Below, piece by piece: positions 17,852-61,852 of a DNA stretch of 64,000 nt. The first letter of the stretch is position 1; the number at the start of each line of letters is the position of its first letter. The translations under genes and the position numbers were made by a program. The stretch is taken from NCBI GenBank assembly GCA_001871475.1, contig MNVE01000009.1, positions 13,114-77,113 on the forward strand, read 5' to 3'. This DNA comes from Candidatus Micrarchaeota archaeon CG1_02_47_40 (GTDB taxonomy: Archaea > Micrarchaeota > Micrarchaeia > Anstonellales > CG1-02-47-40). The notes under the pieces are model-generated. The model worked only from the letters and a program-made list of their open reading frames with translations, ran no database searches and was not told the origin of the DNA.

Positions 17852-19182
17852 GTGCCGTGCTCCCAAGCCGTTGAGTATTCTATTTGCTCTTTTGTCGGCT
17901 TTGGGAGAATTATTCCCTGCGAGAAGAGCGCCAATCTTGCAACCTCATCATCTATTCCGCAAGGCACGCTTATCACGCCTGCTTTCAGCTTCCCTTTATT
18001 CTTCACTAAGTATTCTGCCGAAAGCGCCTGCACTGCAAAGGAGCCATCCATTATTTCTATCGGATGCCCCTGCCCGGAAGGGCGCGCCAGATTCACCAAT
18101 CTTCCCTCTGAAAGGAGGTAAATGCATTTTCCATTTTTGAGAGTGAAGCACTCCAGATTCTCCTTGAGCACTTCTTTTCTTGCGCCCTTTTTTGTAATCC
18201 CCTCTATATCTATTTCGTTGTTGAAATGCCCCGCGTTGCAAACTATCGCGCCGTTTTTCATCTTTTCAATGTGTGAAACGTCTATCGCATTCTTGTTGCC
18301 TGTTGCGGTTATGAAAATGTCCCCTAATGAAGCCGCCTCATCAATTCCCATCACCCTAAAGCCGTCGTAGAGCGCTTCCAGCGCGCGGTGGCAGCCGGAT
18401 TCGCGCTTCTGTTGCGCGGAGGCGGGTTTGCATGCCCCGTCCTCCGTCCCGATTCCGCTTTCTCCAAGCCTGCTTCCTATCTCGCAAACTATTACGCTTG
18501 CGCCCATTCCCCGCAAACGTGAGGCAATTCCCCTTCCGCACCAGCCGTATCCGAGCACAACTGCGGTTTTTCCCGCAATCAGCTTGTTTGTTATTCTCAT
18601 TATCGCATCCAATGTGCTCTGCCCTGTGCCATATCTATTATCAAATAGATGTTTTGAGTATGCGTCATTCACGCTCATTACTGGAAATTTCAGCTTGCCT
18701 GCACTCTGCATCGCTTTCAGCCTTATCACCCCGGTGGTGGTTTCCTCGCACGCGCCTATTATTTGCGGGAGGAGTTCTTGCCGCTTGCCATGCAATAGGT
18801 TAATCAAATCGCATCCGTCATCTATCACTATTTGGGGCTTCTGCTCCAGCACTGCATTCAGACATCCATAATATTCTTCCTTTGACTGCCCGCTCCATGC
18901 AAATATTTCCATCTTCTTTGAGAGGGCGGCTGCAACAGAATCATCCGTTGTAAGCGGGTTGCAGGAAGAGGCGGCAATTTCTGCCCCGCCGGCTTGCAGA
19001 GTCTCAAGCAGTATGCCTGTTTTCTTCTCAAGATGCAATGCAACGGAGATGCGCACTCCTTTCAGGGGTTTTTCCTTCTCAAATCTTTCCCTTATTCCTG
19101 AAAGTATGGGCATGTTTTCCCTTGCCCAGGAAAGCTCTTTTTCTCCGGCAGCTGAAAGTGATATGTTTTTTACTTTGCTCAT
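17848..19182 (-). CDS. ahcY: S-adenosyl-L-homocysteine hydrolase, with an approximately 27-aa in-frame insertion in the NAD-binding domain
   Basis: Conserved SAHH blocks (NLLHGKRQ, GYGWCGRG). The usual EIDPI..ALQAAMEGY stretch is replaced by EIGSRLGESGIGTEDGACKPASAQQKRESGC-HRALEALYDGF. Confidence 0.85.
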   Translation of the reverse strand: MSKVKNISLSAAGEKELSWARENMPILSGIRERFEKEKPLKGVRISVALHLEKKTGILLETLQAGGAEIAASSCNPLTTDDSVAAALSKKMEIFAWSGQSKEEYYGCLNAVLEQKPQIVIDDGCDLINLLHGKRQELLPQIIGACEETTTGVIRLKAMQSAGKLKFPVMSVNDAYSKHLFDNRYGTGQSTLDAIMRITNKLIAGKTAVVLGYGWCGRGIASRLRGMGASVIVCEIGSRLGESGIGTEDGACKPASAQQKRESGCHRALEALYDGFRVMGIDEAASLGDIFITATGNKNAIDVSHIEKMKNGAIVCNAGHFNNEIDIEGITKKGARKEVLKENLECFTLKNGKCIYLLSEGRLVNLARPSGQGHPIEIMDGSFAVQALSAEYLVKNKGKLKAGVISVPCGIDDEVARLALFSQGIILPKPTKEQIEYSTAWEHGT

Positions 19183-20187: not shown

Positions 20188-20207
20188 ATATCACTAAAAA
20201 GTGATAT
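20188..20207. promoter_or_regulatory. palindrome ATATCAC-N6-GTGATAT (and near-palindrome TATCTCTAATTATAGATA at 20166-20190) upstream of TA-like module 3
   Basis: Read directly from the sequence. Lies immediately upstream of the likely ATG at 20210. Confidence 0.35.
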
Positions 20208-20209
20208 AT

Positions 20210-20875
20210 ATGAAACCGACAAGCAGAGAAACCTACAGAATTATTCGCGCAATGCTGCGGATGAAAAGATTTACCCAATATGAGATAAGCAAAAAGGAAA
20301 AAATTACTTTCAGCCTCGTAAACCGCACGGTCAATTGGTTTGTTCAGCATGGATATGCTGCAAAACGGGAAGGGGAATATGAAATAACTGCGCCTGCTGC
20401 AATATTCGGGCTTTTCCCCCTCTACCGGAGCCTCAAGCCATACGCTGTTTTTGATGTGAATGTGAAAAGGGAGCGGGCTTTGGGGTTGGTAAAGAAAAGG
20501 GGGGCGCTGTGCCTGACCAGCGCGCTCTCATATCACGGCGACTATTATCGCGACCCGGCAGTTCATGCTTATCTTGATGATGAAAAAATTATTGAAGAAT
20601 TAAAACGAATGCCAAAGGGTTACTGCCGCATTGAACTTTACAGGGAAGATTTGAATAAGGATGATTTTGAGCAGACGAAGTCTGCGAAATACGTGTCCGA
20701 TGGAGGAAACCGGCAAAGGTTTCCGACAGACTTGTCCGAAGGACAAGCAGAAGGACACGGTATTGAGAAAGCAGGTAAGTATATCGTAACGAACAAAATT
20801 AGAACGATAATTGATTTGTTTTGCGCCAACAAGGCGTATGCGGCTGAAGGATTGATTAAAACGGAGTGGGCTTGA
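20210..20875 (+). CDS. AbiEi-like wHTH regulator (module 3); C-terminal region overlaps a hairpin repeat element
   Basis: N-terminal wHTH and a SALSYHGDYY AbiEi-type motif. Nucleotides 20669-20700 and the palindromes at 20704-20747 match the repeat family seen at 61741-61773. Confidence 0.4.
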   Translation: MKPTSRETYRIIRAMLRMKRFTQYEISKKEKITFSLVNRTVNWFVQHGYAAKREGEYEITAPAAIFGLFPLYRSLKPYAVFDVNVKRERALGLVKKRGALCLTSALSYHGDYYRDPAVHAYLDDEKIIEELKRMPKGYCRIELYREDLNKDDFEQTKSAKYVSDGGNRQRFPTDLSEGQAEGHGIEKAGKYIVTNKIRTIIDLFCANKAYAAEGLIKTEWA

Positions 20876-27511: not shown

Positions 27512-27515
27512 TAAA

Positions 27516-33751: not shown

Positions 33752-33838
33752 ATTGGCGGGTAAGTTGGAGAGGACGATGAAGGGGAAGCGATTGAAATGG
33801 AAAAAAACATAATTGTCCGCGGAGCGCGCGAGCATAAC

Positions 33839-33907
33839 CAACAGCGAAGCTGTTGGGCCGTGTCCGCAAGGACACGTAGTGCGAGAGCGTGATGAATATG
33901 CAAAATA
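33839..33907. repeat. double-hairpin element (CAACAGC-GAAG-GCTGTTG and CGTGTCC-GCAA-GGACACG) flanked by imperfect ~30-bp direct repeats of the uvrA 5' end
   Basis: 33809-33838 (ataattgtccgcggagcgcgcgagcataac) resembles 33908-33936 (the uvrA start). The two hairpins lie between. Confidence 0.5.
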
Positions 33908-36708
33908 TAGTAATACGCGGAGCGCGCGAGCATAATCTGAAAAATATTGATGTTGATATTCCAAGGGATTCCCTTACGGTAATTACCGGCATTTCGGGAA
34001 GCGGCAAAAGCACTCTTGCATTTGACACTATTTACGCGGAAGGGCAGAGAAGGTACGTTGAATCCCTCTCCACCTACGCAAGGCAGTTTCTTGGGATAAT
34101 GGGAAAGCCGGATGTGGATTCTATAGAAGGGCTTTCCCCTGCCATTTCCATAGAACAAAAAGTAAGCGGGAAAAACCCCCGCTCTACTGTTGGCACGATG
34201 ACGGAAATTTACGATTACATGAGGCTCTTGTGGGCAAGAGTAGGAAAGCCCCACTGCCCAAAATGCGGTATTGAAATCGCAAGCCAGACCCCGCAGGCGA
34301 TTGTGGAGAATATAATGAAGGGAAATGAAGGGCAGAAGCTGGAGATACTCTCCCCGATTGTGCAGGGGAAAAAGGGGGAGTATGCGAAATTGCTTGAGAG
34401 ATTATCTGAAAGGGGATTTTCCCGCGCAAGGGTGGATGGGGAGGCGTGCGAGCTATCGCAAGCCCCGCCTCTGAAAAAACAGCAGAAGCATACGATAGAA
34501 GTGCTTGTGGACAGGTTGGCAATAATTGAAGCGGAAAAGAGCAGAATTTTTGAAGCGGTGCAGACTGCGCTGAAGGAAAGCGGGGGGGCGGTGATTGCAA
34601 AAATCGGAAAGGAGGAAAAACTGTTCTCGCAGAAAAATGCCTGCCTTAACTGCGGCATTTCTGTAGGCGAATTGGAGCCTCGGATGTTTTCATTCAATTC
34701 CCCTTATGGCGCATGCGAGGAGTGCCATGGCTTGGGAGTTAAGATGGAATTTGTGCCGGAGTTGGTAATTCCGGATATGGGAAAATGCATTGCGGATGGT
34801 GGGGTTGTTCCCTGGCAGAGCGCTGTTGGAAGCTATAGGGGGAGGATGCTGGAGGCGCTTGGCAAAAAGCTTGGCTTTGATATGTACACTCCGCTTAAGG
34901 ATATTGGAGAAGAGAACCTGCGCATAATACTCTACGGAACGGAAGAGAAAGTAAAATACAAGTTCAAATCAAGGAATGGAAATTCTTCTTTTGAGTATGA
35001 AGGCGGGTTTGAGGGGGTTGTGCCAAATTTAGAGAGATTGCATAAAGAAACGAAATCCGAATGGAGAAAGGAGGAGATTGCAAAATTCATACGCGAGAGC
35101 ACCTGCCCTAAATGCTGCGGGAAAAGATTGATGGAAAATGTGCTTGCGGTGAAAATACAGGAGAAATCAATAATGGATGTTTGCGAGCTTCCAATAGGAA
35201 AAGCAGGGGAATTTTTCAAGGGGCTGAAAACAGAGGGAAACGAAGCGATTATTGCTTCACCTGTGCTGAAAGAGATAAGGGAAAGGCTTGGATTTTTGGT
35301 GAATGTGGGCGTGCCTTATCTTACCCTCTCGCGCATTTCAGGCACGCTTTCAGGGGGGGAGATGCAGAGAATACGGCTTGCCACGCAAATCGGCTCAATG
35401 CTTACGGGTGTGGTGTATGTGCTTGACGAACCCAGTATAGGCCTGCACCAAAAGGACAACGGGATGCTGATAAAGACGCTGAAATCCCTGCGGGATTTGG
35501 GAAATACTCTTTTAGTGGTGGAGCATGACGAGGAGACGATGAGAAATGCGGATTATGTGGTGGATATGGGGCCCGGTGCAGGGGAAGCGGGAGGGAGAGT
35601 AGTGGTTGCAGGGAACGTGAAGGATATTGAGAAATGTGAAGAGTCGCTGACTGGAAAATACCTTTCAGGAAAGCTGAAAATACCGATTCCACAGAAGAGG
35701 AGAAGGAGCAGTAAGTTTCTGATTATTCGCGGGTGCGGGGAAAACAACCTGAAAGACATTGATGTTTCCTTTCCCCTTGGGACTTTCACCTGCGTTACCG
35801 GCGTTTCCGGAAGCGGAAAAAGCACGCTTGTGAATGAAACTCTGCACAAGGGGCTTGCGCAGAAAATATACGGCTCAAGGGAAAGGGCGGGAAAGTTTGA
35901 GAAATTTGAGGGGCTGGATTATATTGATAAGGCAGTTTGCATAGACCAGAATCCGATTGGAAGGACGCCAAGAAGCAATCCCGCAACTTATACTGGTGTT
36001 TTTACTCCCATACGCGAGTTGTTTGCAAAAACTCCTTCTGCGCGCATAAAGGGATATTCTGCCGGGAAATTCTCCTTTAATGTTGAGGGGGGAAGATGCG
36101 AGAAATGCGAAGGGGCAGGAATGCAGAGAATAGAAATGAATTTCCTGCCTGATATATTCGTGCCCTGTGAGGAATGCCAGGGGAAACGGTATAATTCGGA
36201 GGCGCTTTCCATAACTTACAAGGAGAAGAATATTTCTGATGTTTTGAGTATGAGCGTGGATGAAGCTGCCGCGTTTTTTGAGAACATTCCGCAGATTAGG
36301 GAGAAGCTCAAAACTCTGCGGGATGTGGGGCTTGGGTATGTGAAGCTTGGGCAGAGCGCAACCACGCTTTCCGGAGGGGAGGCGCAGAGGGTGAAGCTCT
36401 CAAGCGAGCTTTCAAAGAGGGGGACGGGAAAAACAATTTACATTCTTGATGAGCCGACTGTGGGACTGCACTTTGCGGATGTTGCAAAACTGCTTGATGT
36501 GCTTGTCAGATTGGTGGAGAAGGAGAATACGGTGATTGTTATAGAGCATAATCTGGATGTGATTAAGTGCGCGGATTATGTTATTGATTTGGGTCCGGAA
36601 GGAGGGGAGGGAGGCGGGAGAGTAGTTGCGCTTGGGACTCCGGAAGAGGTTGCGCAAAACAATAAAAGCTGTACAGGAGAGTATCTGAAGGGAGTATTGA
36701 AGTCATGA
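33889..36708 (+). CDS. uvrA: excinuclease ABC subunit A
   Basis: Two ABC ATPase modules (GISGSGKST, GVSGSGKST), zinc-finger Cys clusters, 939 aa. Confidence 0.95.
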   Translation: MMNMQNIVIRGAREHNLKNIDVDIPRDSLTVITGISGSGKSTLAFDTIYAEGQRRYVESLSTYARQFLGIMGKPDVDSIEGLSPAISIEQKVSGKNPRSTVGTMTEIYDYMRLLWARVGKPHCPKCGIEIASQTPQAIVENIMKGNEGQKLEILSPIVQGKKGEYAKLLERLSERGFSRARVDGEACELSQAPPLKKQQKHTIEVLVDRLAIIEAEKSRIFEAVQTALKESGGAVIAKIGKEEKLFSQKNACLNCGISVGELEPRMFSFNSPYGACEECHGLGVKMEFVPELVIPDMGKCIADGGVVPWQSAVGSYRGRMLEALGKKLGFDMYTPLKDIGEENLRIILYGTEEKVKYKFKSRNGNSSFEYEGGFEGVVPNLERLHKETKSEWRKEEIAKFIRESTCPKCCGKRLMENVLAVKIQEKSIMDVCELPIGKAGEFFKGLKTEGNEAIIASPVLKEIRERLGFLVNVGVPYLTLSRISGTLSGGEMQRIRLATQIGSMLTGVVYVLDEPSIGLHQKDNGMLIKTLKSLRDLGNTLLVVEHDEETMRNADYVVDMGPGAGEAGGRVVVAGNVKDIEKCEESLTGKYLSGKLKIPIPQKRRRSSKFLIIRGCGENNLKDIDVSFPLGTFTCVTGVSGSGKSTLVNETLHKGLAQKIYGSRERAGKFEKFEGLDYIDKAVCIDQNPIGRTPRSNPATYTGVFTPIRELFAKTPSARIKGYSAGKFSFNVEGGRCEKCEGAGMQRIEMNFLPDIFVPCEECQGKRYNSEALSITYKEKNISDVLSMSVDEAAAFFENIPQIREKLKTLRDVGLGYVKLGQSATTLSGGEAQRVKLSSELSKRGTGKTIYILDEPTVGLHFADVAKLLDVLVRLVEKENTVIVIEHNLDVIKCADYVIDLGPEGGEGGGRVVALGTPEEVAQNNKSCTGEYLKGVLKS

Positions 36709-36839: not shown

Positions 36840-37916
36840 ATGAAAACTGAAATAAGAGTTATGTCGCTTTTCTCCGGCTGCGGAGGGATGGATTTGGGCT
36901 TCCTTTTGGCAGAGCATCCGCTTTACGAGTATAAAATGGTGTGGGCTAATGATTTTGAGAAATGGGCTTGCGCGACATACAAAAGAAATCTTAAGCATGA
37001 AATTGTCTGCGGAGATATTTGGAATGTTGACTTGGACAAAACGCCGCCGGCAGACGTAGTTATAGGGGGCTTCCCCTGCGAAGATTTCTCAATTCTTAGA
37101 GGCGATACGCGCCCAGGCTTTGAATCAAAAAGAGGCCTGCTTTATACTAAATTCGTTGAGGCAGTATCAAAAAAACAGCCTTTGTTTTTTGCAGCTGAAA
37201 ATGTCAGGGGGCTGTTAAGCGCACACGGAGGGTGGGCAATTAAAAAGATAAAAGAAGATTTTGAAAAAGTAGACCACATCGGGTATAATGTTGAATATAA
37301 ACTCATTAATCTCGCGGATTACGGCGTGCCTCAAAACAGGCAAAGAGTGATTATAGTAGGAATTAGAAATGATTTGAACCTTAAATTTGTCTTCCCGCAG
37401 CCGACGCATAAAGATAGGCATGTCAATACAAGAACTGCTCTTGAAGGAGTTGAAAAAGTTAAGTTAAATAATGAAAAATTGAGAATGCTTGATTCTACAA
37501 AAAAGAAAATTGAAAGAATTCCTCCGGGCGGAAACTATAAAGATTTAGCTGAATATTCAGGAAGAAACTGGATGAGCCTGATATACAAACGGCTGCATCC
37601 TGACGAACCTTCGCCTACAATAGTCGCCTGCGGAGGAGGCGGAACTTGGGGCTACCATTATTCTGAACCAAGACCTCTGACAAACAGGGAAAGGGCGCGG
37701 CTGCAGACATTCCCTGATAATTTTCAATTTTTAGGACCGGTGGGAGAGGTCAGAAAGCAGATAGGAAATGCTGTTCCGCCTTTAGGAATAAAACCTGTGG
37801 CGGAGCGGATTTTGGAAATGTTCAGCAGCTTGAAAGACGCTCAACATGAGGCTGCCTGCGCATTGGCTGCGGAAAAATGCCAAAAAATTGAGGCAGCTTC
37901 AGCTCTTGCCCGATAG
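36840..37916 (+). CDS. dcm: DNA (cytosine-5)-methyltransferase
   Basis: Motif I FSGCGGMDLGF, motif IV GGFPCEDFS and ENV motif VI. Confidence 0.9.
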   Translation: MKTEIRVMSLFSGCGGMDLGFLLAEHPLYEYKMVWANDFEKWACATYKRNLKHEIVCGDIWNVDLDKTPPADVVIGGFPCEDFSILRGDTRPGFESKRGLLYTKFVEAVSKKQPLFFAAENVRGLLSAHGGWAIKKIKEDFEKVDHIGYNVEYKLINLADYGVPQNRQRVIIVGIRNDLNLKFVFPQPTHKDRHVNTRTALEGVEKVKLNNEKLRMLDSTKKKIERIPPGGNYKDLAEYSGRNWMSLIYKRLHPDEPSPTIVACGGGGTWGYHYSEPRPLTNRERARLQTFPDNFQFLGPVGEVRKQIGNAVPPLGIKPVAERILEMFSSLKDAQHEAACALAAEKCQKIEAASALAR

Positions 37917-38294
37917 TCCAGCGCATGCCCGTTCAATATTCTTCTTGATTTGATGCTCCCAGATTATTTTGACTTTCCATCCATGTTTCTTCAGCGCTTG
38001 TATGCTCCGTTTGTCCCTCAATCTGTTGTTTCTTATTTTCGGCAGCCAGTAGCTCCTGTTTGTTTTCGGCTCTTTATAGCATTTTGGGCAGGCATGCCAG
38101 AAGCAGCCATGAAGGAAAACGGCAGTTTTGCTTTTAGGAAGAAGTATATCCGGACTGCCTCGCATTTTAGGATGCATTCTGCAGGTTATATTCCGCTGCT
38201 TCAAAAATCTTCGGACTAATCTTTCCTGAACCGTCCATCTGCTGCGGATTTTTGACATTGTCCTGCTGCGCTGGGTTTTGGTGAGATTATCCAT
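37899..38294 (-). CDS. vsr: very short patch repair endonuclease
   Basis: FLHGCFWHAC motif. 131 aa. Convergent with and overlapping the dcm 3' end. Confidence 0.85.
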   Translation of the reverse strand: MDNLTKTQRSRTMSKIRSRWTVQERLVRRFLKQRNITCRMHPKMRGSPDILLPKSKTAVFLHGCFWHACPKCYKEPKTNRSYWLPKIRNNRLRDKRSIQALKKHGWKVKIIWEHQIKKNIERACAGLSGKS

Positions 38295-41513: not shown

Positions 41514-41739
41514 AAGATTTTCTCCTTCTAATTCCTCGCATGAGCGACCAGAGTTATTTTCAGGAGCTAGCCAAAGCCGGAAGCGGAAAGCCGCAAAGCA
41601 AAGTCGGGAGATTGGAAGGGATGGGAATGAGCGAACGGGGAGTTTATGAAGAGCTTGTGAAGTTCGGCATTCCAAAATTGGATGCGGGGATAATAACAGA
41701 CTGCCTGAACATGGAGAAGGCGTGCATGTGGCAGAATGA

Positions 41740-42125
41740 TGAGGATGGTTTGCAACGAGGGCGTTCTGCCAGCTCGTTGCAAAATTTTGAAAAAGCGCAG
41801 GGTAACCGTACAAGGGGCGCTTTTTCAAATGTTTCGCTGGAAGCGGTTGGGAAAGTGAATGAGTTTGTGAAGGGGAAGGGGCTTGGCATGAAGGTTGAGG
41901 CATCGGCTGGAAGGTATGGGAAGGTAGTTTGGGAAGTGAGGAAACCGCAAGGGTTGACACCGAAGGTGTCAAATTTTGACGCAGAAGCGTCAAATGTTTC
42001 CGAACGATTTGAAAGTTCCGAAGAACTTTCAAAATTTTGAAACGCAAAGCGTTTCAAACGTCTTGACGCGAAACCGACAGCTTTGCTGTCGGAACTTGCG
42101 CAGAGCGCAAGTAGAGCGTCAAGCG
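41740..42125. repeat. hairpin-dense non-coding region (at least 8 consecutive perfect palindromes, many with GAAG/AAA loops); candidate structured ncRNA or cluster of mini-repeat elements
   Basis: Palindromes TTGCAACGAG...CTCGTTGCAA, TTGACACC-GAAG-GTGTCAA, GTCAAATTTTGAC, GACGC-AGAA-GCGTC, TTGAAAGTTC-CGAAG-AACTTTCAA, TTTCAAAATTTTGAAA, TTGAAACGC-AAA-GCGTTTCAA, CCGACAGC-TTTG-CTGTCGG and CTTGCGC-AGA-GCGCAAG, all read directly. Confidence 0.55.
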
Positions 42126-42226
42126 AAGTGAAAAAGGAGTAGGAGATGTTACCCCGCACTGAAAAGTATGCGCGTTGCTTTTTCTTTTATTGCTTCTGCC
42201 GCTTCCCTGCCGTTTGCGTCTAATCT

Positions 42227-42281
42227 ATTGAAATCTCACTTTCAATTTTTGCCTAATTATTGAAAGCAGACTTTCAATAAT
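42227..42281. promoter_or_regulatory. two related palindromes (ATTGAAA-TCTCAC-TTTCAAT; ATTATTGAAAG-CAGA-CTTTCAATAAT) upstream of the AAA_14 ATPase gene; putative operator pair
   Basis: Read directly from the sequence, 20-75 bp upstream of ATG 42302. Confidence 0.35.
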
Positions 42282-42301: not shown

Positions 42302-43645
42302 ATGCCTAAAATACCCTTTATGGAAATAGAAGGCATTGCAAAGCAGAACCCTTGGTGGGGGAACCCCAAAGGATGGGAAGGGCAGGACAGGCACTTTAGG
42401 CTCTTGGAAAATTATAAGTATGTGTATGAGAGGGAGGGCTATCTTCCGGCAAAGGAGGGGGTGGTTGTCCTCTACGGTCCGAGGCAGATCGGAAAGACTA
42501 CCTGGATAAAGAGAAGAATAGCAAACCTTCTGAAAACCTGTAAATCAACGGAGATATTCTACCTGAATGCCGAAACAGTCAGGGACAGGTTTGAGCTGTA
42601 TGAGGCGGTAAAGACTGCCGGTGGGCTATATTCCCCAAAATACATTTTCATTGACGAGATAAACGCGATAGCTGACTGGGAGAGGGGGATAAAGGCGCTT
42701 GTGGATGAAGGGGCTTTTGAAGGGAAATGCGCGCTTTTGAGCGGCTCAAGCTCCCTTAACATAATGAAAAAATCAGAGCGGCTTCCCGGAAGGCTGGCAA
42801 AGGGAAAGAACAAATACAGGTTTTACCCGCTCTCTTTCGCGGAATCGGCAAGGCTTTACGGGATGGAGTTTAAGGATGCAAAATCCGCGCTTGCCGGGCT
42901 GGATAAGCTGAACCCCCTCCTTTACAGATATTTCATACACGGCGGATTTATCCGGGCGCAGAATGCTCTTGAAGAAAAAGGAAGGCTGGACGAGGAGCTG
43001 TTTTCGGTGTATTCTGCGTGGATTGACGGGGAGCTTGCAAAAGTGAAAAAATCACCTGAAATCACGACTGGTATAATGGACGGAGCTGCCAATGCACTGA
43101 CGAATGAAACTACTTGGAGTGCAATCAGCAGAAGCGCAAGCCACCCGACAATAGCGGAGTATGTTGAGACTCTTAAGGACATGTTCGTGTTCGGATACAT
43201 AGAGAAATCAAGACGGGCAAAGGAGGGGATGCCCAAAAACAAGAAGATTTACTTTTCTGACCCTTTTCTTTACTGGCTTGCGCTTTATCGGGGCAGAAAG
43301 ATTGACGGCGCGGGAGTGGAGGATTTGGGTTTGGAAACCTGCGGAAAGCTTGCGGAGCTGTGCGTTTATTCCTGCCTGGTTGATTTTCTTGATGGGCAGA
43401 AGCAGGAGAGCGACTTTGAGCCGCGAAGGTATATTCATTTTGAGAGGGGGGAGGAAGGAGAGATTGATTTTTGCGTTAGACATGAGGGGAAGACTTATTT
43501 CCTTGAGTCAAAATTCGGGAAGGTGGAAAAGGAAAAGAAGGGAGTTATTTACATAACCAAAAATCAGTTCGGCAGGAATAAGATACCTTTGGCGGTTTTT
43601 CTTCTGCATCCTCTTGGAAGTTTGGAGCTGTGCAGGGCAGTTTAG
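42302..43645 (+). CDS. AAA_14/DUF4143-family ATPase
   Basis: Walker A LYGPRQIGKTT and Walker B IFIDEIN. The C-terminal region is DUF4143-like. Confidence 0.65.
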   Translation: MPKIPFMEIEGIAKQNPWWGNPKGWEGQDRHFRLLENYKYVYEREGYLPAKEGVVVLYGPRQIGKTTWIKRRIANLLKTCKSTEIFYLNAETVRDRFELYEAVKTAGGLYSPKYIFIDEINAIADWERGIKALVDEGAFEGKCALLSGSSSLNIMKKSERLPGRLAKGKNKYRFYPLSFAESARLYGMEFKDAKSALAGLDKLNPLLYRYFIHGGFIRAQNALEEKGRLDEELFSVYSAWIDGELAKVKKSPEITTGIMDGAANALTNETTWSAISRSASHPTIAEYVETLKDMFVFGYIEKSRRAKEGMPKNKKIYFSDPFLYWLALYRGRKIDGAGVEDLGLETCGKLAELCVYSCLVDFLDGQKQESDFEPRRYIHFERGEEGEIDFCVRHEGKTYFLESKFGKVEKEKKGVIYITKNQFGRNKIPLAVFLLHPLGSLELCRAV

Positions 43646-44190: not shown

Positions 44191-44994
44191 ATGAAGAGAA
44201 TTTGCATTCCTGTATTTGACTGCAAAATGCTCAAAGAGGCGGCAGAAAAAACTGATTTGGTAGAGGTTAGGCTGGATAGGTTTGGGAAAAGGGAGAGGGA
44301 AAAACTCGCGGAAATAGCAAAAAAAATTAAAGCAAAACTCATCCTCACGATAAGGAAAAAAAGCGAGGGCGGGATTGAGCGGACGGGAGTCCGCGAAAGA
44401 TTTGACTCCCAAGAGTCAAACTGCCCGAAGCGGAGCAAGGGCGGGATTGAGCGGACGGGAGTCCGCGAAAGATTTGACTCCCAAGAGTCAAACTGCCCGA
44501 AGCGGAGCAAGGGCAGGAAGTTTAAAGGGAATGAACGCCAGAGGCTGGCGCTTTTTTTGGAAATGCTTAAAGCAGCAAGATTCGCATACGCCGATATCGA
44601 ACTTTCAAGCGGCAGGAAATTCATTGAAAAGGTAAGAAAAAAAGCAAAAGAGGCAGGCGCAAAGCTCATTCTCTCAAAGCACTATTTTGCCGGCACTCCA
44701 AGCAGGAAGGAGTTTTTGCAAACATATGCAAAAATGAAGAAGCTTGGCGCGGATATTTGTAAAATAGTAGGAACTGCAAGAAGTGAAAGAGACTGCGGGA
44801 ATGCAATGGAAGCGCTGAAAAAGGCAAAAAAAGACACTGCCATCTTCTTCTGCATGGGAAAGAAAGGAAAAAATACAAGAAGCGAGTGCTTAAAATTCGG
44901 CGCTCCTTTCACTTATGCCTCTTTAAAGAAAGGAAAGGAGAGTGCGAAAGGACAGTATGACTTTGGGAAGATGACAAAGCTACTCGAAGGATAA
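44191..44994 (+). CDS. aroD: 3-dehydroquinate dehydratase type I, carrying an in-frame 2x24-aa tandem insertion after the conserved EGG motif
   Basis: ICIPV...VEVRLD, LILTIRKKSEGG, ADIELS, KLILSKHYF and CKIVGTA blocks. The insert is GIERTGVRERFDSQESNCPKRSKG repeated twice. Confidence 0.7.
   Translation: MKRICIPVFDCKMLKEAAEKTDLVEVRLDRFGKREREKLAEIAKKIKAKLILTIRKKSEGGIERTGVRERFDSQESNCPKRSKGGIERTGVRERFDSQESNCPKRSKGRKFKGNERQRLALFLEMLKAARFAYADIELSSGRKFIEKVRKKAKEAGAKLILSKHYFAGTPSRKEFLQTYAKMKKLGADICKIVGTARSERDCGNAMEALKKAKKDTAIFFCMGKKGKNTRSECLKFGAPFTYASLKKGKESAKGQYDFGKMTKLLEG
44367..44510. repeat. perfect 72-bp tandem duplication (2 copies) inside aroD, internally palindromic (GAGTC...GACTC-CCAA-GAGTC)
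   Basis: The identical 72-bp unit gggcgggattgagcggacgggagtccgcgaaagatttgactcccaagagtcaaactgcccgaagcggagcaa occurs twice consecutively. Confidence 0.8.
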
Positions 44995-49654: not shown

Positions 49655-49857
49655 AAAAAAACCTCTGGTTTTTTAGACTTGCCCTTTGGGCAAGCTGATA
49701 AAATTTGTCCCTCATTTATTTTGAGGATGGGAGTTTAAGAGGGTTTTGCCGAGAACTTGCAGGGGAAATGCAGACCAAACGCCATATATTTCATGTAAAA
49801 AAGTCGTTTTTGTAGAAAACGATATGTTTAAAAAGTCGTTCTGTCAAAAAACGATTT

Positions 49858-51117
49858 ATGGAAAACATTGGAGATGTGATTGGAGAATGGGCGCAAACGG
49901 CTGAAAAGAAGCCCTTAAGAGAAAGGGATTTTGACTTTGAAAGGGCGATAACGGAATCCCGTGATAGGGTGATTTCCATTACCGGAGTCCGTAGATCCGG
50001 AAAAAGCTCCCTGCTTATGCTGATTTACAGAAGAATTGCCGCAAAGGGAGGAAAGGCAGTTTATGTGAATGTTGAGGATGACAGGCTCCGTTTCAAGGGC
50101 GCGCTTGACGAGATTTTAAAGCACGCAAAGGATGCGGAATGGCTGCTTCTTGATGAGGTTGCGAACGCGCCGGGATGGGAAGGCTGGATGCATAGGATAA
50201 ATGAGATGAAAAGCATTCGCCTGATAACAGCCTCTTCGCTGAACAAACTCTCAAGATTCCCCCCGCGGGAACTGCGGGGAAGAATAACTTACTTTGAGCT
50301 TTTTCCGCTGTCGTTTAGGGAGTTTTTGGAGTTTAAGGGGATAGAGCCTGCAAAAACCGTTCGGGGGATTGGAGCGGCTGAACGCGCCCTTGAAGAGTAT
50401 CTTGTTTTCGGTGGGTTTCCGGAGGCTGTTATTTCCGAAAACAAGGCGGGGATACTGCAGGAATATGTGAATTCTATAGTTTCGCTGGACGTGGCTGCGC
50501 TCTCGGATATTCCGCTTAGGGTGGTGTTTGACTTTTATTCACAGCTTGCGGGGACGACGTTTTTCTCTGCAACAAAAACGGAAAGGGTGCTCAAATCGGC
50601 AGGGCATAGCGTGGGAAAGGGAACTCTTCTTGAGCTTGAGAGGCTTCTTGAAGCGGCGTATCTTGCGTTTTTCGTGCAGATTTATTCCACTAAGATAAAG
50701 GACAGGACGCTTTATCCGCGCAAGGTTTATCTTGTGGACTGCGGACTTTTTTACGCGGCTACCGGAAAGAAAGACTGGGGGAGATTTTACGAAAATGCGG
50801 TTTTTTTGCAGTTGCGAAGAAAACTCGGACAGCTTGAGCAGATAGTGTATTACCGCTCGCAGGAAAACCGCGAAGTGGATTTTGCCGTAAAAAGCGGCTC
50901 GCGGATTAAAATGCTGATACAGGTAGCTTATGAAATTGATGAGCGGATAAAGGAAAGGGAGGTTGGCGCGCTGGTTGAAGCCGCGCAAGAGTTTGGCTTG
51001 AGCGGAAAAGGCTCGGAACTGCTCGTAATTACGCGGGATTTGAAAAAAACAGAGGACGTGAGGGGAAAACGGATAACATACGTGAGGCTTAGGGACTGGC
51101 TGCTGGAAGAGGAGTAG
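49858..51117 (+). CDS. AAA_14/DUF4143-family ATPase (second copy)
   Basis: Walker A GVRRSGKSSL, Walker B LLLDEV, and a DUF4143-like C-terminus. Confidence 0.65.
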   Translation: MENIGDVIGEWAQTAEKKPLRERDFDFERAITESRDRVISITGVRRSGKSSLLMLIYRRIAAKGGKAVYVNVEDDRLRFKGALDEILKHAKDAEWLLLDEVANAPGWEGWMHRINEMKSIRLITASSLNKLSRFPPRELRGRITYFELFPLSFREFLEFKGIEPAKTVRGIGAAERALEEYLVFGGFPEAVISENKAGILQEYVNSIVSLDVAALSDIPLRVVFDFYSQLAGTTFFSATKTERVLKSAGHSVGKGTLLELERLLEAAYLAFFVQIYSTKIKDRTLYPRKVYLVDCGLFYAATGKKDWGRFYENAVFLQLRRKLGQLEQIVYYRSQENREVDFAVKSGSRIKMLIQVAYEIDERIKEREVGALVEAAQEFGLSGKGSELLVITRDLKKTEDVRGKRITYVRLRDWLLEEE

Positions 51118-55787: not shown

Positions 55788-55933
55788 GCAGGGGTGCCAG
55801 AGTTTGGTCAATTGGGCAGGACTTAAGAGCGCACTGGCGCGATGAAATCCTGTGGACTAGCTCCTTCGCAGGTTCTCGCAAATAATGCCAATATCGGGGC
55901 ATTGCTGGCGGCCTAAAAATCCTGCCCCCTGCA
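55788..55933 (+). tRNA. tRNA-Leu(UAA) with two introns (about 19 nt at the canonical 37/38 site and about 41 nt in the T-loop); mature length about 86 nt
   Basis: Manual fold: acceptor GCAGGGG/CCCCUGC; D-stem CCA/UGG; anticodon stem CAGGA/UCCUG; loop CUUAAGA (anticodon UAA); long variable arm GGA-CUAGC-UCC; T-stem GCAGG/CCUGC; T-loop UUC[intron]AAAU; discriminator A followed by TTTT. Confidence 0.7.
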
Positions 55934-55973
55934 TTTTGCTTGCAAAATGCGGGGCCTTGTCCGCAAGGACAAG
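55931..55973 (+). terminator. tRNA trailer: oligo-T plus two hairpins (GCATTTTGC-TT-GCAAAATGC and CTTGTCC-GCAA-GGACAAG, a GNRA tetraloop)
   Basis: Palindromes read directly from the sequence. Archaeal tRNA transcription terminates at T-runs. Confidence 0.35.
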
Positions 55974-56071
55974 TGTCCCCTGCATTCATTTATTTTTCTT
56001 CTTTTCCTTCCTCAAAACCAAAGGTTTATATGCTTTGTATTACGAAACTATCGTTTGGAGATAGTATTGTT

Positions 56072-56878
56072 ATGCAAAAGATAAAACGTTTCGGAGAGAT
56101 GGAATTGCGGCTCATGTTCACGCTTGAACAGCGCGAGAATCAGCTGTTCAGCATTGCGGATGCCAAGCGCATACTCGGCAGTTCAGACGCTTCCGTTTGG
56201 AATGTGCTCAAGCGCCTGATGAAAAAAAGAAGGGTTATCCGCCTGCAGAGGGGCGCCTATCTTTTTGCCCCGCTGCGCAGCGGCGAGGAGGGCTTATGGT
56301 CGGAAGATGCGTTTCGGGTGGTCCCCATGCTCGTAGGAAAGAGAAGATTTTACATCGGTTTTGTTTCAGCTATGAATCACTGGGGGATGACGGAGCAGCT
56401 GCCCATAGTGGTTTATGTTGCCCTGAAACGCCAGAAAAGAGGCATTGATGCGGTGCAGTCCCGGTTTGTTTTCGTCAAAAAAAAGCGGCTTGGGAAGTTT
56501 TTGCAGATTTCTCTAGGCGATACGAAGGTTAATATTTCCACGGTTGAGCAGACGATACTGGACGGGCTGTCCTTCCCGGAATACTGCCTTGGAATCGCCG
56601 GAATTGCCAAGGCAATCTGGTTTGTGCAAAAAGATATTGAGTGGCAAAAGCTTCTTTCCCTTGCAAAAAGCGAAAAAAACGCCGTGCGGAGGCGTTTGGG
56701 ATATCTTCTTGAGATTCTTGGTTTCAGAAGGCAGGCAAAGGAGTTGGAAGGTGTTTTTTCCGGCTATTTCTGGCTGGACCCGTCAAATCTGAGGGATGAC
56801 TTTGAATATTCAAAAAAATGGGGATTGAAGATAAATCTGAAAAAACGGGATTTGCTTGAATTCATGGAGGTGCACTGA
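56072..56878 (+). CDS. AbiEi-like antitoxin/regulator (TA module 4)
   Basis: wHTH (SIADAKRILGSSDASVWNVLKRLMKKRRVIRLQRGAY) and a FVSAMNHWGMTEQLP AbiEi motif. Start set at an internal Met. Confidence 0.55.
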   Translation: MQKIKRFGEMELRLMFTLEQRENQLFSIADAKRILGSSDASVWNVLKRLMKKRRVIRLQRGAYLFAPLRSGEEGLWSEDAFRVVPMLVGKRRFYIGFVSAMNHWGMTEQLPIVVYVALKRQKRGIDAVQSRFVFVKKKRLGKFLQISLGDTKVNISTVEQTILDGLSFPEYCLGIAGIAKAIWFVQKDIEWQKLLSLAKSEKNAVRRRLGYLLEILGFRRQAKELEGVFSGYFWLDPSNLRDDFEYSKKWGLKINLKKRDLLEFMEVH

Positions 56879-57628
56879 ATGAACGCCGAAGAATTGAACA
56901 GGAAGGCGGTATCCGCCGGCATTCCGCGTGCAATAATGGAAAAGGATTACGTGCTTTCGGTTGTGCTCTTCCATATTTCAAAATCCGTCCTTGCTGAAAG
57001 GATGCTTTTCAAGGGAGGCACTGCACTCAAGAAGGTTTATTTTCCCGATGCAAGATTTTCCGAAGATTTGGATTTTGCTGCACGGGCATCTGATGAGAGG
57101 ACGATAATGGATGAACTGAAGTCGCTTTTTGAAGACAGAGAACTCAAAGGCATCAGATTCGCATTCCTGGAAAAAGAAAGGTCGCACGCGGGCTTGAGGG
57201 CCGCCCTGAAATTTTCCTTCATTCTCGGGCATACGCAGAGAATCCGCTTTGATTTCAGTTTCCGCGAAAACGTCGCGTCAAAGCCGGAGAAAAGGGCGAT
57301 TGTGGATGAATATAATCTTGGCAATGCGGAATTGCTTGTGATTCCGCTTGAGGAGCTGTTTGCGGAAAAAATTAACGCGCTTTTTGGAAGAATTGCCGTC
57401 AGAGATTTGTATGATGTCTGGTTTCTGTTCAAACGCGGCATAAAGGCGGATAAGCTGATGATAAAAAGGAAGTTTGCCTATTACAATGAAGAATACGAAC
57501 CCTCAAAACTGAAAGGAAGGATAAACTTGTTCAGAAAAGACTGGAAGAGAGATTTGGCTCAATTCATGAATGACGTTCCGGATTTTGATGGAATTGCGGA
57601 TGAAACTGTGAAATTTCTTGAAGAATAA
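56879..57628 (+). CDS. AbiEii-like nucleotidyltransferase toxin (DUF1814)
   Basis: FKGGTALKKVYFPDARFSEDLDFA signature. It starts 1 bp after the upstream stop. Confidence 0.7.
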   Translation: MNAEELNRKAVSAGIPRAIMEKDYVLSVVLFHISKSVLAERMLFKGGTALKKVYFPDARFSEDLDFAARASDERTIMDELKSLFEDRELKGIRFAFLEKERSHAGLRAALKFSFILGHTQRIRFDFSFRENVASKPEKRAIVDEYNLGNAELLVIPLEELFAEKINALFGRIAVRDLYDVWFLFKRGIKADKLMIKRKFAYYNEEYEPSKLKGRINLFRKDWKRDLAQFMNDVPDFDGIADETVKFLEE

Positions 57629-59904: not shown

Positions 59905-59946
59905 AGCGGGGCTTGCTCAATACAGAGTTATAAACCGCACACGCGC

Positions 59947-61640: not shown

Positions 61641-61644
61641 TGAT

Positions 61645-61800
61645 TTGCAACGAGGGCTCTCGGCGGGCAAGCCCGCCGTATCCGCCAGCTCGTTGCAAAA
61701 TTTTGAAAATCGCTCCTCCCTGCGCGAAGCGCGGGGTATTGAGCAGACGAAACCTGCGAAATACGTATCCGAAGGATACGGTATCCGCGTAAAGCGATTT
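61645..61800. repeat. hairpin-rich repeat element (module A TTGCAACGAG..CTCGTTGCAAAATTTTGAAAA; module B GAGCAGACGAA..CTGCGAAATACGT.TCCGA.GGA) related to 41750-41798 and 20669-20700
   Basis: Shared modules identified by eye. Nested palindromes CGGCGGG-CAAG-CCCGCCG, CGCG-AAG-CGCG, GTATCC-GAAG-GATAC. Confidence 0.55.
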
Positions 61801-61852
61801 TCAAATGAGCTAATTCTTCCCTTCGCTCTTCCCGCAAAAATAAGCGCGCTTC

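What the first reader, a model, noticed from the sequence alone, without database searches (positions are those of the whole stretch)
44367..44510. In-frame palindromic insertions in housekeeping genes (aroD tandem 72-bp x2; ahcY; uvrA 5' end), resembling Rickettsia palindromic elements
aroD carries a perfect 2x72-bp tandem repeat that adds 48 aa directly after the catalytic EGG motif, and the repeat is internally palindromic. ahcY (about 18417-18510) has a ~27-aa in-frame replacement that contains a CGCGC..GCGCG palindrome. The uvrA 5' end (33809-33936) shows a double GAAG/GNRA hairpin flanked by imperfect duplicates of the gene start. Together these suggest small hairpin elements that insert into ORFs while preserving frame, a phenomenon not commonly described in archaea.
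Basis: partly seen in the sequence, partly recalled or inferred. Interest (0 to 1): 0.6.

Follow-up and report, generated by a model that had tools for sequence, protein, structure and literature searches.

The report
Hairpin elements inserted in archaeal genes
A tiny groundwater archaeon (Micrarchaeota) carries small GC-rich double-hairpin DNA modules that sit mostly between genes but have also landed, in frame, inside working genes such as aroD, where one module has doubled in tandem and adds a floppy 48-residue loop; this behaviour is known from bacterial REP/RPE elements and mitochondrial hairpin elements, but I found no description of it in archaea.

Summary
aroD (44191-44994) carries two tandem 72-bp units (44362-44518) right after its SEGG motif. 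A closely related strain has one unit, and no ortholog has any. Each unit is 59 nt folding into two hairpins plus a 13-nt junction repeat. The middle repeat is a hybrid of the outer two, so the doubling came from unequal recombination or slippage.

The aroD unit does match a covariance model built only from two other loci (20.66 kb and 61.74 kb; E about 0.001). It shares their layout: GAUUGA, hairpin, GAAAGA, hairpin. The uvrA hairpins recur at 42.07, 55.96 and 20.73 kb with compensatory changes.

I found a further in-frame case: a 31-aa insert in an AbiEi-like gene, made of one element nested in the loop of another. The ahcY insert is 18 aa, not about 27, and only weakly structured. The uvrA case is not in-frame. 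It is a duplicated gene start plus a double hairpin upstream of the true start.

All four insertion events inside ORFs are multiples of 3 and stop-free. AlphaFold models the aroD insert as a disordered loop. No transposase was seen, no BHB intron motif, and no copies outside this lineage. Best reading: a REP/RPE-like hairpin element family new to archaea, with the insertion mechanism unresolved.

The parts
44191..44994 (+). aroD, type I 3-dehydroquinate dehydratase, 267 aa including the insert
   Evidence: Pfam DHquinase_I, E 4.6e-46, matched in two stretches split by the insert. PDB homologs also align in two stretches. The AlphaFold TIM barrel has pLDDT above 90 outside residues 64-106.
44362..44374 (+). 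Left junction repeat AGCGAGGGCGGGA, encoding S-E-G-G
   Evidence: It is the first of three 13-nt direct repeats bounding the units.
44375..44433 (+). Unit 1 core, 59 nt: UUGA, hairpin 1 (44379-44394), GAAAGA, hairpin 2 (44401-44420), CUGCCC, GAAGCGG
   Evidence: Folding. Covariance model R1, built from other loci, matches 44371-44424 at 20.8 bits, E 0.0014.
44434..44446 (+). Middle junction repeat AGCAAGGGCGGGA, a hybrid with the 5' part of the right repeat and the 3' part of the left repeat
   Evidence: This is the structure expected from unequal crossover or slippage between the left and right repeats. It is absent from the one-unit allele L003.
44447..44505 (+). Unit 2 core, identical to unit 1
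   Evidence: R1 match at 44443-44496.
44506..44518 (+). Right junction repeat AGCAAGGGCAGGA. Its GGGCAG is the exact complement of the CUGCCC at the end of the unit.
18409..18462 (-). 54-nt (18-aa, ESGIGTEDGACKPASAQQ) in-frame insert in ahcY (gene 17848-19182). GC is 0.67 against 0.48 for the rest of the gene. It is flanked by an imperfect repeat of about 14 nt (AAAGCGGAATCGGG / AAGCGCGAATCCGG).
   Evidence: Absent from eight Micrarchaeota orthologs and from the DNA of the closest relative. It is the only structured insert in a census of about 20 ortholog pairs. Fold z-score is -1.86. No family relatives were found.
33797..33892 (+). 31-codon uORF upstream of uvrA: a diverged duplicate of the uvrA start (MEKNIIVRGAREHN), then the double hairpin, ending in a TGA that overlaps the uvrA ATG (TGATG)
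   Evidence: There is an exact 20-nt repeat, CGCGGAGCGCGCGAGCATAA, at 33818 and 33916.
33838..33876 (+). uvrA double hairpin: CCAACAGC-GAA-GCUGUUGG, then GC, then CGUGUCC-GCAA-GGACACG
   Evidence: Fold z-score -6.1. Hairpin A resembles 42074-42092 with an A-U to G-C swap. Hairpin B resembles 55956-55973 (19 of 20 bases, E 0.002; pattern found twice against 0 expected).
33892..36708 (+). uvrA, full length from this ATG
   Evidence: Pfam UvrA domains. The N-terminus aligns with chain 3pih_A from its residue 1.
20666..20758 (+). 93-nt (31-aa) in-frame insert in an AbiEi-like HTH gene (20201-20875). It is an outer double-hairpin element of 42 nt with a second element of 51 nt nested in the loop of its hairpin 2.
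   Evidence: Homologs of about 195 aa lack the segment. There is a 34/38 match to 61739-61776 (E 3e-11), and a 13/14 match that resumes after the 51-nt nested block. Fold z-score -6.1.
61735..61784 (+). Un-nested copy of the double-hairpin element (UAUUGA, GCAGAC-GAA-ACCUGC, GAAAUA, CGUAUCC-GAA-GGAUACG), inside a hairpin island at 61640-61800
   Evidence: Several assemblies break in or close to this island, some inside it and some in the adjacent NYN gene.
41954..42122 (+). Hairpin island upstream of an AAA_14 ATPase gene. It has four hairpins with UUUGA...UCAAA bases and a three-way junction, CUUGACGC[two hairpins]GCGUCAAG. That junction is the hairpin UUUGACGC-AGAA-GCGUCAAA with two hairpins nested in its loop.
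   Evidence: z -5.5. It shares a 28/29 block with 61.68 kb (E 8e-10).
55926..55986 (+). Intergenic double hairpin flanked by a perfect 10-nt direct repeat, CCCCTGCATT (55926 and 55977). Hairpin A pairs the left repeat with an inverted copy of it inside the insert.
   Evidence: z -5.2.
49656..49694 (+). Intergenic double hairpin: AAAAAACC-UCU-GGUUUUUU and CUUGCCC-UUU-GGGCAAG. The second hairpin's stem is identical to one in the relative L010 (1487-1503).

Best explanation
The aroD repeat is two tandem copies of an in-frame insertion made of a small double-hairpin element plus a 13-nt junction repeat.

The element belongs to a loose, dispersed family of GC-rich hairpin modules in this Micrarchaeota genome (Candidatus Micrarchaeota archaeon CG11, GCA_002762955.1) and its closest sequenced relative. 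The family layout is: purine-rich junction GAU(U/G)GA, hairpin 1, GA(A/C)A(G/U)A, hairpin 2. The stems vary with compensatory changes, and the loops are mostly purine-rich on the sense strand.

The modules lie mostly in intergenic 'hairpin islands', where they nest in each other's loops. Occasionally they enter ORFs. There, only copies whose length is a multiple of 3 and which carry no stop codon persist, and these are translated as extra, disordered surface loops. This step is inferred.

After a single insertion into aroD directly after SEGG, unequal recombination or replication slippage between the two flanking 13-nt repeats produced the two-unit allele. This step is shown by the hybrid middle repeat and by the one-unit allele.

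How the modules spread is not shown. The variable length of the junction repeats (about 6 to 21+ nt), and the fact that part of each insert is complementary to its own junction repeat, fit a copy-and-paste route through template switching or homology-guided integration better than a classical transposase.
For: - Insert present only in this species. 14 aligned homologs (all 41% identity or less) lack it; one-unit and two-unit alleles exist.
- The hybrid middle repeat fits unequal crossover.
- Covariance model R1, built only from 20.66 kb and 61.74 kb, ranks the two aroD units as the next-best hits in 128 kb of search space. They score 20.8 bits, E 0.0014, over the full model length with all 13 pairs formed.
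- R1 also hits an intergenic hairpin island in the nearest relative (L010, E 5.5e-5).
- Compensatory changes: GCGGAC/GUCCGC versus GCAGAC/GUCUGC in hairpin 1. The five hairpin-B copies are 100% paired, and 2 of 7 pairs changed on both sides.
- Nesting is shown directly between paralogous copies: 20.66 kb versus 61.74 kb, 61.66 kb versus 41.75 kb, and within the 42.0 kb island.
- Four independent insertion events inside ORFs (72, 54, 42 and 51 nt) are all multiples of 3 and stop-free.
- Inserts are richer in GC than their host genes: 0.59 vs 0.41, 0.67 vs 0.48, 0.52 vs 0.43.
- AlphaFold gives an intact barrel, with the insert at pLDDT below 50 and no secondary structure.
- Perfect-stem hairpins are about twice the shuffled expectation in the window (191 vs 83).
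- Published precedent for the behaviour: PMC3733652, PMC10969869, PMC4478555.
Against: - The aroD unit's similarity to the family is modest. Plain Smith-Waterman scores of 24-26 fall within the shuffled range of 23-32. The R1 E-value comes from a shortened calibration.
- No second copy of the whole aroD unit was found anywhere. The DNA collections evidently do not contain this genome, so the rest of its roughly 1 Mb is untested.
- The ahcY insert has no relatives and only a weak hairpin.
- The family was defined from few copies, partly by eye.
- No mobilising enzyme was found in the window.
- Translation of the inserts is inferred, not shown.
Confidence: 0.6

Rival explanations
1. These are not mobile elements. 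Each insert arose on the spot through replication or repair errors (template switching, snap-back synthesis, microhomology-mediated repair). Such errors create a hairpin together with a duplication of flanking sequence. The shared hairpins reflect copying from whichever hairpin template was nearby or ectopically paired.
For: - Junction repeats vary in length: about 6 nt at 20.66 kb, 10 nt at 55.93 kb, 13 nt in aroD, about 14 nt in ahcY, 20+ nt at uvrA.
- Part of each insert is the inverted complement of its own junction repeat: CUGCCC/GGGCAG in aroD, and GCAAAATGC-GGGG against CCCCTGCATTTTGC at 55.93 kb.
- The nested block at 20.70 kb contains a diverged duplicate of its host hairpin.
- No transposase, reverse transcriptase or HUH domain was found in the ORFs scanned.
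- The aroD and ahcY inserts are singletons.
Against: - Conserved junction sequences and a 34/38 identical block lie in unrelated contexts 41 kb apart.
- The same hairpin B occurs at five sites.
- There is a hit in another species.
- All of these imply copying from a shared source, not purely local invention. This rival overlaps the best explanation in mechanism and differs mainly on whether there is a self-propagating family.
Confidence: 0.25
2. The inserts are archaeal bulge-helix-bulge introns, or some other RNA-level intervening sequence, and are spliced out of the mRNA so that the proteins are normal.
For: To my knowledge, Micrarchaeota (ARMAN) have a splicing endonuclease of broad specificity, and archaeal mRNA introns exist (cbf5). 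I did not check this here. The inserts are strongly structured RNA.
Against: - A scan for two 3-nt bulges around a 4-bp helix, at any register giving 72-nt or 144-nt excision, found no motif with flanking helices at the boundaries.
- All four insertion events inside ORFs are multiples of 3 and stop-free. An intron has no such need; the chance is about 1 in 81 for length alone.
- The same modules occur between genes.
Confidence: 0.04
3. The aroD tandem repeat is an ordinary in-frame tandem duplication of coding sequence (or an assembly artefact) and is unrelated to any hairpin family. The resemblance to other loci is chance among GC-rich palindromes.
For: - Plain sequence similarity to other loci is not significant.
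- Three of the four assemblies come from one site and may share reads.
- Other in-frame tandem repeats without hairpins exist in the window, for example in TctA at 26358-26424 and the M48 peptidase at 6804-6846.
Against: - Even the one-unit allele is a 24-aa insertion absent from all orthologs, so a duplication alone does not explain it.
- The unit is 59% GC inside a 41% GC gene.
- A structure-aware model built from other loci recovers it with every pair formed.
- The hybrid junction needs real reads that span it.
Confidence: 0.08

Closest known systems
Bacterial REPs / BIMEs, including REPs inserted in ORFs (Di Nocera et al. 2013, PMC3733652)
   Same: Short GC-rich palindromes, mostly extragenic and often clustered or in mosaics. 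They are sometimes inserted in frame in ORFs as dimers encoding 20-30 aa, including in uvrA and other repair genes, and are sometimes nested inside other palindromes.
   Different: - No GTAG or CGTC tag at a constant end.
- No RAYT (Y1 transposase) seen.
- Very low copy number per 64 kb and high sequence heterogeneity.
- Junction direct repeats are present, which REPs are not described as having.
- The host is an archaeon.
Rickettsia palindromic elements (RPE; reviewed in PMC10969869)
   Same: Palindromic, inserted in frame in unrelated housekeeping genes, and encoding hydrophilic peptides judged compatible with the fold of the host protein.
   Different: - RPEs are about 100-150 bp and fall into families of clearly homologous copies (44 insertions in R. 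conorii).
- Here the units are 42-72 nt, the ORF inserts are mutually dissimilar, and the aroD unit is single-locus.
- No sequence similarity to RPEs was tested or claimed.
Mitochondrial double-hairpin elements (Allomyces; Paquin et al. 2000, cited in PMC4478555), yeast mitochondrial GC clusters (PMC4478555) and sponge repetitive hairpin-forming elements (PMC2800124)
   Same: - GC-rich two-hairpin modules in a genome that is poorer in GC.
- Found in intergenic regions, rRNA genes and occasionally protein genes.
- Units merge, shuffle and form tandem arrays, with short putative target duplications.
- The mechanism is unknown; DNA-level and RNA-mediated routes have both been discussed.
   Different: - Those are organellar elements with many copies and a defined target dinucleotide (AG for GC42).
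- Here the genome is a free-standing archaeal genome, the junction repeats are longer and variable, and the copy number is unknown.
Archaeal MITEs (Sulfolobus SM elements, haloarchaeal MITEs; listed in PMC10969869)
   Same: Small non-autonomous repeats in archaeal genomes.
   Different: MITEs have terminal inverted repeats matching a parent IS and a fixed-length target duplication. Neither is seen here.

Membership tests
Rickettsia palindromic elements (RPE) | Multi-copy family of clearly homologous units of about 100-150 bp within one genome | tested here: not met
   The aroD unit has no other copy in the window. A four-frame peptide search of 5.8 billion protein clusters found only aroD itself. 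The DNA collections gave nothing. The units are 42-72 nt. The rest of this genome could not be searched.
Rickettsia palindromic elements (RPE) | In-frame, stop-free insertion in housekeeping ORFs, absent from orthologs | tested here: met
   aroD, ahcY and the AbiEi-like gene. All lengths are multiples of 3.
Rickettsia palindromic elements (RPE) | Sequence homology to known RPE families | not tested
Rfam has no match in the window.
REP / BIME (GTAG- or CGTC-tagged) | Imperfect palindrome of 20-40 nt with a conserved GTAG or CGTC tetranucleotide at one end | tested here: not met
   The hairpins are 15-26 nt palindromes. GTAG follows only the uvrA hairpin B. No tag is shared across copies.
REP / BIME (GTAG- or CGTC-tagged) | Associated RAYT (Y1/HUH tyrosine transposase) gene in the genome | tested here: inconclusive
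   No Y1_Tnp or other transposase hit in the window ORFs scanned with Pfam, nor in the locus annotations. The window is only about 6% of the genome, assuming a genome of about 1 Mb.
REP / BIME (GTAG- or CGTC-tagged) | Mostly extragenic, clustered in mosaics, occasionally in ORFs as dimers | tested here: met
   Islands at 41.95-42.12, 49.66, 55.93 and 61.64-61.79 kb. ORF copies in aroD and at 20.66 kb.
MITE | Terminal inverted repeats matching an IS element, and a target-site duplication of fixed length | tested here: not met
   No terminal inverted repeats at the unit ends. Junction repeats are about 6, 10, 13, about 14 and 20+ nt.
Archaeal BHB intron | Bulge-helix-bulge motif (3-nt bulge, 4-bp helix, 3-nt bulge) at the exon-intron boundaries | tested here: not met
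   The script scan of all registers for 72-nt and 144-nt excision found no candidate with flanking helices at the boundaries. Relaxed motifs were not searched exhaustively.
Hammerhead or other Rfam three-way-junction RNA | Match to a curated covariance model or to core nucleotides (CUGANGA ... GAAA ... UH) | tested here: not met
   No Rfam family reached its gathering score in the window, and nothing relevant appeared at E up to 10 over the repeat. The junctions GAUUGA and GAAAGA do not fit the hammerhead core.
Mitochondrial-type double-hairpin elements / GC clusters (as a functional analogy) | GC-rich module of two adjacent hairpins, dispersed, polymorphic in presence and copy number, able to merge or nest and to form tandem arrays | tested here: met
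   Two-hairpin architecture at five or more loci. One-unit versus two-unit alleles. Nesting. GC excess. This shows similar behaviour, not homology.

The most novel reading that the evidence does not exclude
This Micrarchaeota lineage hosts a previously undescribed kind of self-propagating structured element. It is a 40-60-nt three-way-junction or double-hairpin module with conserved purine-rich junctions. It copies itself without any element-encoded transposase, for example through a single-stranded or circular intermediate that integrates where its own stem sequence finds microhomology. It prefers the loops of existing hairpins, and it remodels essential proteins by adding translated loops.
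Probability: 0.25. Interest if true: 0.75.

Novelty: new variant of a known kind. Interest (0 to 1): 0.52.

Why it matters
If the family is real, small palindromic 'genomic parasites' that enter housekeeping ORFs in frame are not confined to bacteria (REP, RPE) and organelles (GC clusters, double-hairpin elements). They would also occur in ultrasmall DPANN archaea, whose reduced genomes are usually thought to leave little room for such elements.

It also offers a clean natural example of how new protein loops arise: insertion first, then tandem expansion, with one-unit and two-unit alleles co-existing. It gives a defined set of loci on which to test whether spread happens at the DNA or the RNA level.

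There are practical consequences too. These modules break short-read assemblies, since several MAG contigs end in or close to the 61.7 kb island. They also inflate or split gene calls, for example ORF166 and the uvrA uORF.

Tried and rejected
- Rfam scans of the window (gathering threshold) and of the repeat (E up to 10) gave nothing relevant.
- The exact or degenerate aroD-unit pattern gave 0 hits in GTDB representative genomes and 0 in IMG/VR.
- The same approach gave 1 hit in JGI metagenomes. By its flanks it is a chance match in a GC-rich bacterial contig. These collections did not return even the aroD locus itself, so they do not test copy number within this genome.
- A peptide search using the four open frames of the unit against 5.8 billion protein clusters found only this aroD.
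- The block shared by 41.7 and 61.7 kb gave two chance bacterial hits in GTDB genomes and none in viral contigs. The family patterns gave none in viral contigs.
- The BHB-intron scan was negative.
- A hammerhead reading of the three-way junction was rejected on core sequence and on the Rfam result.
- Plain Smith-Waterman alignment of the aroD unit against the window was not significant. Only the structure-aware model separates it from background.
- Weak R1 hits at 21337, 31648, 48717, 26651 and 57231 were inspected and do not look like members.
- MAFFT alignment of five family members was too poor in register to build a second model.
- More distant relatives (L016 Anstonellales, L017 Gugararchaeum; 42 kb) have no R1 hit.
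- Extending the genome beyond the window yielded only about 11 kb of new sequence, with no new copies.
- A C/D-box sRNA reading of the UGAUGA motifs at 41.73 and 61.63 kb was considered and dropped, because there is no box D.
Full report
**Source and context**

The window is archaeal. It encodes Nop10, eIF2-alpha, GINS, primase and eIF5A. It is 100% identical to contigs of Candidatus Micrarchaeota archaeon CG11_big_fil_rev_8 (GCA_002762955.1) and to a 173-kb ENA contig from Crystal Geyser groundwater. Window GC is 46%.

**The aroD observation**

- Tandem Repeats Finder reports a 72-bp period, 2.2 copies, at 44362-44518. The two full copies differ at one base.
- The repeat lies in aroD (44191-44994; Pfam DHquinase_I, E 4.6e-46, match split in two). 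It adds 2 x 24 aa directly after ...TIRKKSEGG.
- Against 14 homologs of 199-242 aa (most 218-233), all 41% identical or less, the segment is a pure insertion (A1).
- Removing it restores ...SEGG|KFKGNERQR..., which aligns with the homologs.
- The Glu of 'EGG' corresponds, from my knowledge of Salmonella/E. coli AroD, to Glu86 of the catalytic dyad. It is not invariant among the homologs aligned here. His164 and Lys191 are invariant.

**Anatomy of the unit**

- Each 72-nt unit is a 13-nt junction repeat plus a 59-nt core.
- The three junction repeats are AGCGAGGGCGGGA (44362), AGCAAGGGCGGGA (44434) and AGCAAGGGCAGGA (44506).
- The middle one starts like the right repeat and ends like the left one. 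That is what unequal crossover or slippage between the outer two would produce.
- A contig from another sample (L003; 99.4-99.8% identical) carries exactly one unit, bounded by the left-type and right-type repeats. Copy number is therefore polymorphic and the one-unit state is the simpler form.
- The two-unit form appears in three assemblies, though all are from the same site.
- The core folds as GAUUGA, GCGGAC-GGGA-GUCCGC, GAAAGA, UUUGACUC-CCAA-GAGUCAAA, closed by GGGCGG (in the junction repeat) pairing with CUGCCC.
- It is 59% GC in a 41% GC gene and open in four of six frames.

**Is it a repeated element?**

- The whole unit occurs nowhere else in the window.
- A peptide search with its four open frames against 5.8 billion protein clusters found only this aroD.
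- DNA pattern scans of GTDB representative genomes, JGI metagenomes and IMG/VR gave nothing except one chance match.
- Those DNA collections did not return the aroD locus itself. They therefore do not contain this organism, and copy number in the rest of its genome remains untested.

**A hairpin family in the window**

A scan for perfect stems of at least 6 bp found 191 hairpins against about 83 in shuffles. They are concentrated in a few places.

- 41954-42122: a hairpin island with four hairpins on a UUUGA...UCAAA base. It also has a three-way junction, CUUGACGC[CCGACAGC-UUU-GCUGUCGG, A, ACUUGCGC-AGA-GCGCAAGU]GCGUCAAG. That junction is the neighbouring hairpin UUUGACGC-AGAA-GCGUCAAA with two hairpins nested in its loop.
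- 61640-61800: an island that shares a 28/29 block with 41.77 kb (E 8e-10) and differs by a nested hairpin, CGGCGGG-CAAG-CCCGCCG, in a loop.
- 61735-61784 and 20663-20766 share 34/38 bases (E 3e-11), then 13/14 more after a 51-nt block present only at 20.7 kb. That block is itself two hairpins with the same layout. It sits in the GAA loop of hairpin 2.
- 55926-55986 and 49656-49694: intergenic double hairpins.

The common layout is (G/U)AU(U/G)GA, hairpin 1, GA(A/C)A(G/U)A, hairpin 2.

**Does the aroD unit belong to the family?**

- By plain local alignment, no. Scores of 24-26 fall within the shuffled range of 23-32. The three best plus-strand hits are nevertheless the 20.7, 41.7 and 61.7 kb loci.
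- A covariance model built only from the 20.66 and 61.74 kb copies (R1) was run over both strands with filters off. It ranks the two aroD units directly after its own training loci.
- Those matches score 20.8 bits, E 0.0014, covering the full model with all 13 pairs formed, including a G-C to A-U swap in hairpin 1. The calibration is shortened, so the E-value is approximate.
- R1 also finds one copy in an intergenic hairpin island of the nearest relative available (L010, GCA_040960315.1, AhcY 72% identical; 24.1 bits, E 5.5e-5).
- That island also holds CUUGCCC-UCC-GGGCAAG, whose stem is the same as at window 49678.
- Two more distant, partly syntenic relatives have no hit.

**uvrA**

- The functional gene starts at 33892 or 33898. 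Its N-terminus aligns with solved UvrA from residue 1.
- Upstream, 33797-33838 is a diverged duplicate of the gene start, MEKNIIVRGAREHN, with an exact 20-nt repeat at 33818 and 33916.
- It is followed by CCAACAGC-GAA-GCUGUUGG and CGUGUCC-GCAA-GGACACG (z -6.1).
- The duplicate is out of frame with uvrA. It forms a 31-codon uORF whose TGA overlaps the uvrA ATG. This is therefore not an in-frame insertion.
- It looks like the same kind of event (hairpins plus a junction duplication) occurring at codon 15. The downstream copy of the duplicated start then serves as the gene start. Translational coupling is my inference.
- Hairpin A matches 42074-42092 with a compensatory swap.
- Hairpin B recurs at 55956, 20731, 61764 and as the outer stem at 20.69 kb. 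The five copies are 100% paired, with 2 of 7 pairs changed on both sides and none on one side only (13 of 500 shuffles reach this score).
- All four uninterrupted hairpin-B copies found by the pattern scan lie on the + strand. The other modules I examined likewise show their mostly purine-rich loops on the sense strand of the local genes (by inspection).

**ahcY**

- Compared with eight Micrarchaeota orthologs and with the DNA of the closest one, the insert is 18 aa / 54 nt (18409-18462). It is flanked by an imperfect repeat of about 14 nt.
- It is 67% GC. It was the only strongly structured insert in a census of about 20 ortholog pairs against two syntenic relatives.
- Its fold is only marginally better than shuffles (z -1.86), and it has no relatives in the window.
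- It may be an old or unrelated member. I would not lean on it.

**A further in-frame case**

The HTH protein at 20201-20875 belongs to a family of proteins of about 195 aa. Homologs up to 56% identical lack a 31-aa segment, which is exactly the nested element pair (20666-20758; 42 + 51 nt).

Four separate insertion events inside ORFs (72, 54, 42 and 51 nt) are thus all multiples of three and stop-free. The chance of that is about 1 in 81 for length alone. This argues that the inserts are translated rather than spliced out.

- A scan for bulge-helix-bulge motifs permitting 72-nt or 144-nt excision was negative.
- AlphaFold2 (37-sequence alignment) gives a confident TIM barrel, with residues 64-106 at pLDDT below 50 and without secondary structure. 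The insert is modelled as a floppy loop between strand 3 and helix 3.

**Mechanism**

- Shown: lineage-specific insertion; junction repeats; tandem expansion by recombination between them; nesting in hairpin loops; compensatory stem changes; the frame filter in ORFs.
- Not shown: how copies are made.
- The junction repeats vary (about 6, 10, 13, about 14, 20+ nt).
- In aroD and at 55.93 kb, part of the insert is the inverted complement of its own junction repeat. This fits template switching or homology-guided integration better than a transposase with a fixed stagger.
- No transposase, reverse transcriptase or HUH domain appeared in the roughly 50 ORFs checked. The window is only about 6% of the genome, assuming a genome of about 1 Mb.

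**Comparison with known systems**

- The behaviour matches bacterial REPs that enter ORFs as dimers encoding 20-30 aa, including uvrA, and that nest inside palindromes (PMC3733652).
- It matches Rickettsia RPEs (PMC10969869).
- It also matches mitochondrial GC clusters and double-hairpin elements, which merge, shuffle and form tandem arrays (PMC4478555, PMC2800124).
- Membership in any of these families fails on defining features. There is no GTAG/CGTC tag, no RAYT seen, no terminal inverted repeats, no fixed target duplication, units are much shorter than RPEs, and no multi-copy homologous family has been demonstrated.
- My literature searches found no description of such elements in archaea. 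That is absence from a partial library, not proof.

**Verdict**

This is best filed as a new, archaeal variant of the small palindromic-element phenomenon, with a well-documented tandem expansion in aroD. The size of the family and the mechanism of spread remain open.

Noticed in passing
window 41540-42040 (+): A called 166-aa ORF with no Pfam hit ends in a run of four perfect hairpins, so its C-terminus (...TPKVSNFDAEASNVSERFESSEELSKF) is encoded by palindromes. Either hairpin modules have extended a real gene's 3' end, or the ORF is an artefact of stop-free palindromic DNA.
   Followed up: partly
window 61588-62013 (+), 61640-61800: Gene callers place a 141-aa ORF through the 61.7 kb hairpin island. 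It overlaps the convergent NYN gene by about 160 nt and is probably spurious. Contigs of three other assemblies (L009, L014, L015) end in or next to this island, so it breaks short-read assemblies.
   Followed up: partly
window 22931-23677 (-), ORF 21629-23857: A 742-aa ORF with no Pfam hit contains at least 6 copies of a 147-bp (49-aa) tandem repeat at 75-99% identity. It is probably a repetitive surface protein.
   Followed up: no
window 26358-26424, gene 25553-26851 (+): The TctA-family transporter carries an in-frame 27-bp x 2.5 tandem repeat, seen as a 26-aa insert (SADNEAEGKSRVDETEGKNKSDEAEG) against the L016 ortholog. It has no hairpin potential. This is a different kind of in-frame expansion from the aroD one.
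   Followed up: partly
window 6804-6846, gene 6499-7395 (-): An 18-bp GC-rich repeat (CCCCTCCGCCGCCCCTTC x 2.4) adds a GGGRGG stretch to the M48 peptidase relative to its ortholog.
   Followed up: no
window 4789-6497, 20201-21610, 26903-28298, 55940-57628: There are three AbiEi/AbiEii (type IV toxin-antitoxin) gene pairs, plus a possible fourth at 20201-21610, in 64 kb of a very small genome. Two of them lie next to hairpin modules (20.7 kb and 55.9 kb). Compared with the syntenic relative L016, these pairs look like insertions between conserved housekeeping genes.
   Followed up: partly
window 42302-43645 and 49858-51117 (+): Two paralogous AAA_14/DUF4143 ATPase genes each have a hairpin island or double hairpin immediately upstream (41954-42281 and 49656-49694).
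   Followed up: no
L003 about 824, corresponding to window about 44730: The one-unit aroD allele also lacks one A in an A5 run (GCAAAAATG to GCAAAATG). This would truncate the protein after ...TYAK. It is either a real frameshift (a pseudogene in that strain) or an error near the end of a short contig.
   Followed up: partly
window 36840-38294; 59179-61272: The window holds a C5 DNA methyltransferase with an adjacent Vsr mismatch endonuclease. It also holds an N6/N4 methyltransferase with an MvaI/BcnI-type restriction enzyme. That is two restriction-modification-type modules next to the uvrABC genes. GAGTC and GACTC occur three times per aroD unit, but I did not test any link.
   Followed up: no
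L010 1470-1830 and 11312-11328: The nearest relative has its own intergenic hairpin island, between Trm56 and POR, with (N)UGCCC-loop-GGGCA(N) hairpins. One such hairpin lies 30 nt after the ahcY stop codon. This suggests these hairpins may also act as 3'-end or terminator-like signals.
   Followed up: partly
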